Below, piece after piece: positions 44,909 through 45,923 of a DNA stretch of 64,000 bases (position 1 is its first letter; the number at the start of each line of letters is the position of its first letter). A model generated the notes under the pieces. It did not search any database and was not told the DNA's origin. It saw only the letters and a list, made by a program, of their open reading frames with translations. This stretch comes from Heptranchias perlo (taxonomy: Eukaryota). The DNA lies in contig NC_090351.1 of NCBI RefSeq assembly GCF_035084215.1, forward strand, positions 20,336,001 to 20,400,000, given 5' to 3'. The position numbers were made by a program, and so were the translations under genes.

Positions 44909-44921
44909 CACTTCACCATGG

Positions 44922-45056
44922 ATGATGTGGAGATGCCGGTGATGGACTGGGGTGGACAAATGTAAGGAATCTTACAACACCAGGTTATAGTCCAACAGTT
45001 TTATTTGAAATAAAACTGTTGGACTATAACCTGGTGTTGTAAGATTCCTTACATTT
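44922..45056 (-). mobile_element. Short Penelope terminus insertion with perfect fold-back
   Basis: Inverted PLE end at 44922-45010. Perfect 49-bp arms at 44958-45006 and 45008-45056. ACCATGGATG repeated at 44915-44924 and 45057-45066. Confidence 0.85.
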
Positions 45057-45923
45057 ACCATGGATGTAAGCTGTATTTTCAAAGCCATTGGTTTGGTCAG
45101 CAGCATTGAATGCAAACTGTAAAACTAACCTTGTTAAACCATACAGTGATCTTAGACACTGAGCATAAATGTTGTGAAGCAAAACCCAGCTAGCTGATGC
45201 TGCATATTACAATACACTTAAACTACATTTGTACCTAAAACAATTTAAATTCTATCCATTAAGAATAATAATACCTACCTAAGTACCTATTGTAATCCTT
45301 TGGTGGTGTTATCTGTGTTACCATAAATATGTTCATAAAATGCACCTGACTTCATCCTAGCAATTAGGAGTTAATCAATTTACTCAGTAGTGTACAGTGT
45401 CTCGCTGTGATTGGTTTGGTTTATGAATGGTTAATATGGACTGGATGGTGTAGGATGGGCCAAAAGTGGGCTAAATTTTAGGCACCTATAAACCATAGAC
45501 ATATTTGGTCGAAATCTATTCTAGTCTGTCTGAGTATCTGGAAAAATGGTGAAGATTGGTTTGATATCCCTTCTTGTATTTAGACTGAAGATCAGAAGTT
45601 GCAAGAGTATATTCTATAAGTATGGGACATGTCCTACCACTTGCTCAACAAACTTACAAAATTTAGCCATGACACTGTGACTAGAATTGTTCATTTAGAA
45701 AAGGCTGAGTACCAAAATTTGACAATAAAATTGATAGAAAATTTTCAAAATGTTAAAACAGTTGACAATTTTAATTCAAATAAAGGATTACTTTGAAAAA
45801 AGTGTATCGTTTGCTCTTTGTGTTTGAATTAACAAAAAACAACGCTGATAAATGCTCGCTTGTCAACCACATTATCCTTAACCTTTATCTCTTATGTAAT
45901 TCTGTGTGACGACCCAAACTTAC

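What the first reader, a model, noticed from the sequence alone, without database searches (positions are those of the whole stretch)
44915..45066. Fold-back Penelope insertion whose 5' end lies ~5 nt after the hammerhead cleavage site
Seen: a second Penelope end of slightly different sequence, inverted. In element sense it begins at TTTCAAATAAAA, which in the neighbouring copy is only 5 nt past the predicted cleavage site. It then snaps back into a perfect 49-bp hairpin with a 1-nt loop (centre 45007). ACCATGGATG flanks both sides like a target-site duplication. Inference: this records reverse transcription of a ribozyme-cut ~90-nt RNA, followed by self-primed second-strand synthesis. It could represent a class of tiny ribozyme-defined mobile hairpins.
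Basis: partly seen in the sequence, partly recalled or inferred. Interest (0 to 1): 0.75.

Follow-up and report, generated by a model that had tools for sequence, protein, structure and literature searches.

The report
Twin-primed Penelope hairpin insertion
This 133-base hairpin is one of more than 11,000 head-to-head insertions of the end of a Penelope-like retroelement in this genome, likely made from two DNA copies started on opposite strands of the target site rather than by a ribozyme-cut RNA folding back on itself.

Summary
The hairpin, the flanking duplication and the neighbouring hammerhead are real. The proposed mechanism is not supported.

The copy belongs to a Penelope-like family (RT plus C-terminal GIY-YIG) with at least 11,101 head-to-head hairpins in this genome. 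These hairpins typically carry one 34-36-nt tail and their own target duplication.

Junctions are not set by the ribozyme cut. In 78 of 91 tail-anchored copies an arm runs through the cut site. The 5'-most points pile up at -44..-27 (33 of 79) rather than at the cut (3 of 79). That pile-up lies about 30 nt downstream of a TATA box, so it is likely the transcription start.

Simple snap-back also fails. The short arm reaches further 5' than the tail-bearing arm in 21 of 59 copies, and the centre base comes from either arm about equally (18 G: 20 C).

Best reading: both nicked target strands prime cDNA at the two tail boundaries, and the two cDNAs anneal at a short palindromic word. The architecture is known; I found no paper giving this genomic evidence for how it forms.

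The parts
44502..44908 (+). Copy A: older, 5'-truncated Penelope-like 3' end (last codons of ORF, pLTR, hammerhead, tail) of a different subfamily; a separate insertion
   Evidence: 86% to the pLTR end of near-full-length copy L094, ORF-end match at 44502-44536; other copies continue upstream of 44502 (loose ends)
44749..44755 (+). TATA box of the pLTR, 67 nt upstream of the predicted cut; predicted transcription start near 44778-44781
   Evidence: TATA motif at -65..-71 in 24 of 31 long copies versus 2 of 779 control windows; function inferred
44781..44821 (+). Minimal type I hammerhead of copy A: stem I 44781-44786/44816-44821, core from 44787, no helix III loop, predicted cut after 44815
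   Evidence: core and fold; stems I and II paired across 105 cores; no Rfam hammerhead match; activity untested
44874..44907 (+). 34-nt tail of copy A
   Evidence: sequence; homologous to the tail of L094, which ends at the ORF's ATG
44915..44924 (+). Target-site duplication, tail side (7-10 bp; up to 3 nt shared with the element end)
44924..44957 (-). 34-nt tail of insertion B, present on one side only; its two ends are the inferred reverse-transcription start sites
   Evidence: a 44-nt motif covering the tail and its boundary has 9248 exact copies; 59 of 66 inverted arms start at its 5' boundary
44958..45006 (-). Tail-bearing arm of insertion B (inferred cDNA 1)
45003..45011 (.). Junction word ATTT-N-AAAT that fits both arms; centre base at 45007; inferred annealing site of the two cDNA 3' ends
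   Evidence: 9-nt overlap at +3..+12; centre G 18: C 20 among like copies
45008..45056 (+). Short arm of insertion B, ending at the tail boundary (inferred cDNA 2)
45057..45066 (+). Target-site duplication, short-arm side

Best explanation
The 133-bp insert is a head-to-head pair of Penelope-like element ends with one 34-nt tail and a 7-10-bp target duplication, likely built from two cDNAs, one primed by each nicked target strand. Inferred steps: (1) A TATA-type promoter in the pLTR starts an RNA about 35-40 nt upstream of the hammerhead cut site, and the RNA is mostly used uncut. (2) The element's RT/GIY-YIG protein, probably as a dimer, nicks both target strands about 12 bp apart. (3) One 3'-OH primes inside the RNA at the end of the tail (the ORF start) and the other at the start of the tail; both copy towards the RNA 5' end, from the same RNA or from RNAs of the same source. 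(4) The two like cDNA ends anneal at a short self-complementary word (here ATTT-C-AAAT; elsewhere AAGCTT or the TCA..TGA word at the ribozyme's 5' edge), flaps are trimmed, gaps are filled, and the central mismatch is repaired either way. Shown here: the architecture, the copy numbers, the fixed short-arm start, the junction distribution, the two-way asymmetry, the random centre and the TATA spacing. Not shown: transcription start, nicking, priming, ribozyme activity.
For: Short arm starts within -10..+15 nt of the tail start in 59 of 66 inverted copies (53 within -5..+8), and 57 of those 59 have a duplication of 8-14 bp. The short arm reaches more than 5 nt further 5' than the tail arm in 21 of 59, the reverse holds in 21, and 17 are symmetric; in the short-tip class the split is 19, 13 and 17 of 49. 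Such asymmetry is present in copies whose arms are still near-identical (L086 0 differences in 67 nt, L053 0 in 82, L092 1 in 202, L095 2 in 390). Centre base on the tail-bearing antisense strand is G 18, C 20, T 4, A 1 in 43 loci (P=0.87 against 1:1 for G:C). The two arms of one insertion share variants: identical in 20 of 34, against a mean of 4.0 and a maximum of 10 in 5000 shuffles. 5'-most points fall at -44..-27 in 33 of 79, and a TATA motif sits at -65..-71 in 24 of 31 long copies. In vitro, the anole element PAc nicks and extends both strands, starts at two internal sites that bound the tail, mainly uses uncut RNA, and is predicted to be a dimer (PMC11167929).
Against: All evidence is from fixed genomic copies; no intermediate was seen. 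Palindromes can be remodelled after insertion (own knowledge), which could also randomise the centre and create asymmetry. The window copy itself is symmetric with the centre base (G) that self-priming predicts. PMC11167929 reports no difference in start site between the two strands, so it does not show the one-site-per-strand pairing that I infer. 13 of 79 resolved copies have no detected inverted arm, and 7 of 66 inverted arms do not start at the tail boundary. The copies with a TATA box fall into few subfamilies and are not independent. The tail-anchored sample is the first 91 of 9248 along one contig.
Confidence: 0.68

Rival explanations
1. One cDNA folds back and copies itself. The endonuclease then resolves the product at the tail boundary, and the palindrome centre is later remodelled by deletion, giving asymmetry and either centre base.
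For: Self-priming was proposed for head-to-head PLE palindromes (PMC3846280), and endonuclease resolution for the tail (PMC8557442). Arms share variants, as self-copying predicts. Long palindromes are unstable (own knowledge).
Against: It needs one-sided deletions on the tail side of about 300-440 nt (L076, L087) and over 1.4 kb (L107). Asymmetry already exists in copies with 0-2 differences between arms. Both directions occur about equally.
Confidence: 0.17
2. One reading: the ribozyme cuts the RNA, the roughly 90-nt 3' piece is reverse-transcribed, and the cDNA end snaps back at ATTT-G-AAAT to prime the second strand.
For: This copy's junction lies 3-12 nt after the cut and has the predicted centre base. 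12 of 50 short-tip hairpins have their 5'-most point at +3. The hammerhead stems stay paired across subfamilies.
Against: 78 of 91 copies span the cut. At most 1086 of 11,101 hairpins fit, and 15 of the first 50 of those still cross the cut, with no peak at 0. 20 of 38 G/C tips have the wrong centre base. Symmetric tips also form at AAGCTT upstream of the cut (about 6 of the 50 listed, read by eye), which only uncut RNA can give. A 1-nt loop with a 4-bp stem is a very weak primer (own knowledge). The model gives no reason for the short arm to stop at the tail boundary.
Confidence: 0.09
3. The 135-nt hairpin is its own non-autonomous element, amplified as a unit from a hairpin master.
For: The 40 best-scoring relatives share nearly the same ends.
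Against: That list is ranked by likeness to the query. Only 48 matches have this exact tip among more than 11,000 hairpins. They come in several subfamily variants and both centre bases. Tips form a continuum. The unit lacks the TATA box and the ribozyme.
Confidence: 0.04
4. The palindrome is an assembly or read fold-back artefact.
For: No contig laid bridges the tip at this locus.
Against: There is a target duplication, a one-sided tail and a mismatched centre, and unique sequence resumes after 49 nt. 57 of 59 comparable copies have their own duplications. A short-read contig with no differences runs from 45032 into the unique flank, though its 25 letters in the arm are under that tool's 31-letter bar and the run may be the assembly's own sample.
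Confidence: 0.02

Closest known systems
Endonuclease-positive Penelope-like elements (PLEs) with inverted 5' pLTR and 30-40-bp tail (PMC8557442, PMC3846280, PMC2377424; passages read)
   Same: Single ORF with RT and C-terminal GIY-YIG, pLTR holding a hammerhead, an inverted 5'-truncated copy at the 5' end, a tail on one side, a short target duplication. A TATA box plus initiator in the pLTR was noted in Adineta Pen2a.
   Different: Here both arms are reduced to the last 50-130 nt of the pLTR with no ORF, at more than 11,000 copies, and their 5' limit tracks a TATA-predicted start. The duplication is mostly 12-13 bp (8-10 bp in the Adineta examples). The D. virilis promoter is described as TATA-less and internal.
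PAc (Poseidon of Anolis carolinensis), PMC11167929 (main text read)
   Same: Two internal RT start sites bounding the tail, both strands extended, uncut RNA as main template.
   Different: In PAc the ORF starts inside the ribozyme and the tail lies about 110 nt into the ORF; here the tail ends at the ATG. This family has a CX4CX2C linker before the endonuclease, which PMC8557442 ties to the Neptune and Nematis clades. The PAc text read does not model the inverted arm.
L1 twin priming (recalled, from no call)
   Same: Both target strands prime cDNA, giving a 5' inversion joined at microhomology inside one target duplication.
   Different: In L1 the second primer anneals at variable places and the two cDNAs cover different parts of the RNA. 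Here the second start is fixed at the tail boundary and both cDNAs cover the same part, giving a palindrome.
Non-LTR retrozymes (bioRxiv 10.64898/2026.07.22.740005, parts 1-2 of 5 read)
   Same: Short, non-coding, hammerhead-associated, PLE-derived.
   Different: Retrozymes are head-to-tail tandem units with a ribozyme in each. These are single head-to-head insertions, and this copy has no ribozyme.

Membership tests
EN+ Penelope-like element | [quoted passage not shown] | tested here: met
   L094: RVT_1 E=2e-10; GIY-YIG E=9e-4, 20 bits, just under Pfam's 22.6 cut-off. The ORF of this copy has one in-frame stop, so two pieces were scanned.
EN+ Penelope-like element | pLTR repeat at both ends of the ORF, with an inverted 5' copy | tested here: met
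   L094 has a 157-nt identical direct repeat and a 132-nt inverted copy
EN+ Penelope-like element | 30-40-bp tail at one end only | tested here: met
   34 nt at 44924-44957; one-sided in 48 of 50 short-tip hairpins, one had two tails and one none
EN+ Penelope-like element | Target-site duplication | tested here: met
   the empty site was not found
Minimal type I hammerhead of PLEs | CUGANGA and GAAA core with helices I and II, helix III absent or vestigial | tested here: met
   105 cores: pairs 1-4 of each stem are standard in 93-105 of 105, mostly constant or G-U wobble changes; no Rfam family match. Lack of helix III is typical of PLE hammerheads (PMC6155905).
Minimal type I hammerhead of PLEs | Self-cleavage | not testable with these tools
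   needs an in vitro assay
Neptune/Nematis versus Penelope/Poseidon clade | CX2-5CxxC linker between RT and endonuclease | tested here: met
   CX4CX2C upstream of the GIY-YIG in the L094 translation; definition from PMC8557442
Neptune/Nematis versus Penelope/Poseidon clade | Placement on the RT tree | not tested
   no reference proteins were fetched
Non-LTR retrozyme | Head-to-tail tandem units, each with a hammerhead | tested here: not met
   single head-to-head unit without a ribozyme; definition
   genome-wide gap classes
microRNA precursor | Rfam gathering score | tested here: not met
   all microRNA hits are well below their thresholds and reflect the hairpin alone

The most novel reading that the evidence does not exclude
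The standard outcome of integration in this Penelope-like family is a twin-primed, head-to-head pair of cDNAs: one strand starts at each tail boundary and both run to the capped 5' end of an uncut, ribozyme-headed transcript. More than 11,000 tiny palindromes in this genome would be a readable record of that reaction. It would explain the tail, the inverted pLTR and the partial tandems of PLEs with one mechanism, and show that ribozyme cleavage does not set insertion ends.
Probability: 0.55. Interest if true: 0.68.

Novelty: new member of a known kind. Interest (0 to 1): 0.45.

Why it matters
How Penelope-like elements make their inverted repeats and one-sided tail is an open question. The papers read offer self-priming (PMC3846280) or endonuclease resolution (PMC8557442), and the in vitro study leaves the later steps unvalidated (PMC11167929). 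This locus alone is an ordinary example of the known architecture. Its family, however, supplies thousands of young, short, fully readable insertions whose junction statistics discriminate between those models and favour priming on both target strands from uncut RNA. That makes the question testable from sequence, and it argues that the hammerhead does something other than define the mobile unit.

Tried and rejected
Rfam scan of 40,000-50,000: no hammerhead match, only sub-threshold microRNA hairpins.

Ranking relatives by similarity made the 135-nt unit look like a fixed family. This was rejected as selection bias once tail-anchored copies were sampled.

The first listing of those copies had an off-by-one error that mis-oriented about half of them; it was replaced. 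The first arm mapping missed arms when a stronger match lay farther off; it was redone.

Sequencing runs: no RNA holder is on record and all four runs laid are contigs, so they say nothing on RNA ends or expression. No empty-site joint was among those shown, and no piece bridges the tip.

Targeting next to older copies (B lies a few nt from the tail of A) is not supported. Outside the window copy, 3 of 168 flanks hit a terminus, of which only L039 is a true neighbour, against 19 of 1068 background windows.

Two look-ups in earlier findings returned nothing. The host was not identified; 'shark' was a recalled lead, untested.

Full report
Observation. The sequence is as described. Arms 44958-45006 and 45008-45056 are perfectly complementary around base 45007, and ACCATGGATG occurs only at 44915 and 45057 in the window. 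The neighbouring copy A (44502-44908) has a minimal hammerhead with its core at 44787 and a predicted cut after 44815. Insertion B is a short arm of 49 nt, a centre base, a second arm of 49 nt and a 34-nt extension on one side. The 9-nt word at the tip fits both arms, so the junction lies anywhere from +3 to +12 relative to the cut. Rfam gave no hammerhead match.

Parent element. The own genome is 3.25 Gb. A 44-nt motif covering the extension and its boundary has 9248 exact copies. I took the first 91 along contig C1. One locus, L094, holds a near-full element of about 3 kb: a 157-nt direct repeat at both ends, a 132-nt inverted copy at the 5' end, and an ATG directly after the extension. Its ORF, broken by one stop, matches RVT_1 (E=2e-10) and, weakly, a C-terminal GIY-YIG (E=9e-4, below the curated cut-off). 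It has a CX4CX2C linker, which PMC8557442 (passages) assigns to the Neptune and Nematis clades. The extension is therefore the PLE tail, and B is the known inverted-pLTR-plus-tail structure reduced to its ends.

Test 1: do junctions sit at the cut? Of the 91 copies, 78 have at least one arm running through the cut site. Twelve extend more than about 800 nt and were left unresolved. In the other 79 the 5'-most point lies beyond -100 in 24, at -100..-45 in 5, at -44..-27 in 33, at -26..-3 in 4, at -2..+8 in 3, at +9..+25 in 8 and later in 2. Genome-wide, hairpins with exact 12-nt anchors number 1086, 1181, 3465 and 5369 for gaps of 8-38, 39-68, 69-98 and 99-128 nt (reversed-pattern controls 0). 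The total of 11,101 is a lower bound. Only the first class can lie wholly downstream of the cut. In its first 50 members, 15 still cross the cut (11 beyond the ambiguity of the overlap), position 0 is no more used than -1 to -3, and the one peak is at +3 (12 of 50), the ATTT-N-AAAT word. Symmetric tips also occur at the AAGCTT word upstream of the cut (about 6 of the 50 listed, by eye). The ribozyme cut does not define these insertions, though a cut template cannot be excluded for the +3 class that includes this copy.

What the main end point is. A TATA motif lies at -65..-71 in 24 of 31 long copies, copy A included, against 2 of 779 control windows in the same copies. The sequence between the motif and the ribozyme differs among subfamilies. 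About 30 nt downstream of it is the -44..-27 cluster, in pyrimidine-rich initiator-like sequence. I infer that the cluster is the transcription start and that most templates are uncut. The copies are related, so the count overstates independence, and no RNA data could test it. A TATA box with an initiator in a pLTR was noted in PMC3846280 (passages); the D. virilis promoter is TATA-less (PMC2377424, passages).

Test 2: self-priming or two primers? 66 of the 79 resolved copies have an inverted arm. 59 of the 66 begin within -10..+15 nt of the tail start, and 57 of those 59 have a duplication of 8-14 bp, mostly 12-13. Of the other 7, some exceed the span searched and one (L039) is a neighbouring older copy. 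A self-copied arm can only repeat what the tail-bearing arm holds. Yet the short arm reaches more than 5 nt further 5' in 21 of 59 (more than 20 nt in 11), the tail arm in 21, and 17 are symmetric. The short-tip class gives 19, 13 and 17 of 49. Several asymmetric copies have near-identical arms. Self-priming also fixes the centre base. A search for this tip found 48 matches. After merging duplicates (46 rows) and dropping 3 rows that failed the tail filter, 43 remain: G 18, C 20, T 4, A 1. One dropped row, L144, does have a tail with a 1-nt deletion and would make it 19:20. Finally, the two arms share subfamily variants: identical in 20 of the 34 copies that could be scored, against 4.0 on average in 5000 shuffles. 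Both arms thus come from one source at each event; a few copies (L048, L049, L057) differ at 2-4 sites.

Mechanism. These results fit two cDNAs primed by the two nicked target strands, one at each tail boundary, that anneal by their like 3' ends at any short self-complementary word. PMC11167929 (main text read; supplements not read) shows for the anole element that both strands are nicked and extended, that synthesis starts at two internal sites bounding the tail, and that uncut RNA is the main substrate. It reports no strand difference in start site and does not model the inverted arm, so assigning one site to each strand is my inference. The main rival is fold-back with endonuclease resolution and later remodelling of the palindrome centre; it needs large one-sided deletions in young copies but is not excluded.

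Artefact. A short-read contig of 1603 nt covers 45032-45700 without differences. It enters the arm by only 25 nt and may come from the assembly's own sample; nothing bridges the tip. The case against artefact rests on the duplication, the one-sided tail and the family.

Novelty. Inverted 5' copies, tails and palindromic junctions are described for PLEs. Eight searches listed no paper whose title or abstract start presents twin priming or a start-site limit for PLE hairpins; the two hits for 'twin priming' were seen as listings only. Subscription journals are mostly not covered, and the supplement of PMC11167929, which maps insertion ends, may bear on this. The retrozyme preprint (parts 1-2 of 5) concerns tandem units. 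PMC6155905 (passages) confirms that PLE hammerheads usually lack helix III.

Verdict. The feature is real and is a new member of a known kind. The ribozyme-cut snap-back reading is not supported as the mechanism. Interest 0.45, carried by the family's value as a test of how PLEs integrate.

Noticed in passing
window 44090-44365: Tandem duplication of 138 nt at 98% identity, just upstream of copy A.
   Followed up: no
L094 2014-5014 (minus strand): Near-full-length element with identical 157-nt pLTRs, one in-frame stop between RT and endonuclease, and a Neptune-type cysteine linker.
   Followed up: partly
L106: Between the arms lie repeated head-to-tail copies of the short segment from the predicted start site to stem II, as if the cDNA end re-primed several times at the RNA 5' end.
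   Followed up: no
L202: A short-tip hairpin that scores for a tail on both sides, 1 of 50.
   Followed up: no
L039; window 44908-44915: Younger copies inserted at or beside the tail of an older copy; no enrichment over background in the sample.
   Followed up: yes
hammerhead 5' edge in most subfamilies, e.g. L060, L111: The antisense strand reads like a splice donor (CAG/GTGAGT). The ribozyme core and stem I may dictate this, and junctions are not fixed there.
   Followed up: no
window 44813-44815 and 105 cores in fetched loci: The predicted cleavage triplet ends in U and stem III is a bare AAGCTT palindrome (the search required this word), which suggests weak, dimer-dependent cleavage (recalled knowledge).
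   Followed up: no
L178, L181, L182 (contigs C45, C1076, C1086): The same insertion with the same private variant and flanks on three contigs: a segmental duplication or redundant assembly.
   Followed up: no
window 10303-10386, 19765-19839, 26477-26568, 43540-43616, 54002-54082, 62786-62858: An 80-90-nt dispersed repeat, unrelated to the Penelope end, shared with the flank of L094; possibly part of a SINE.
   Followed up: no
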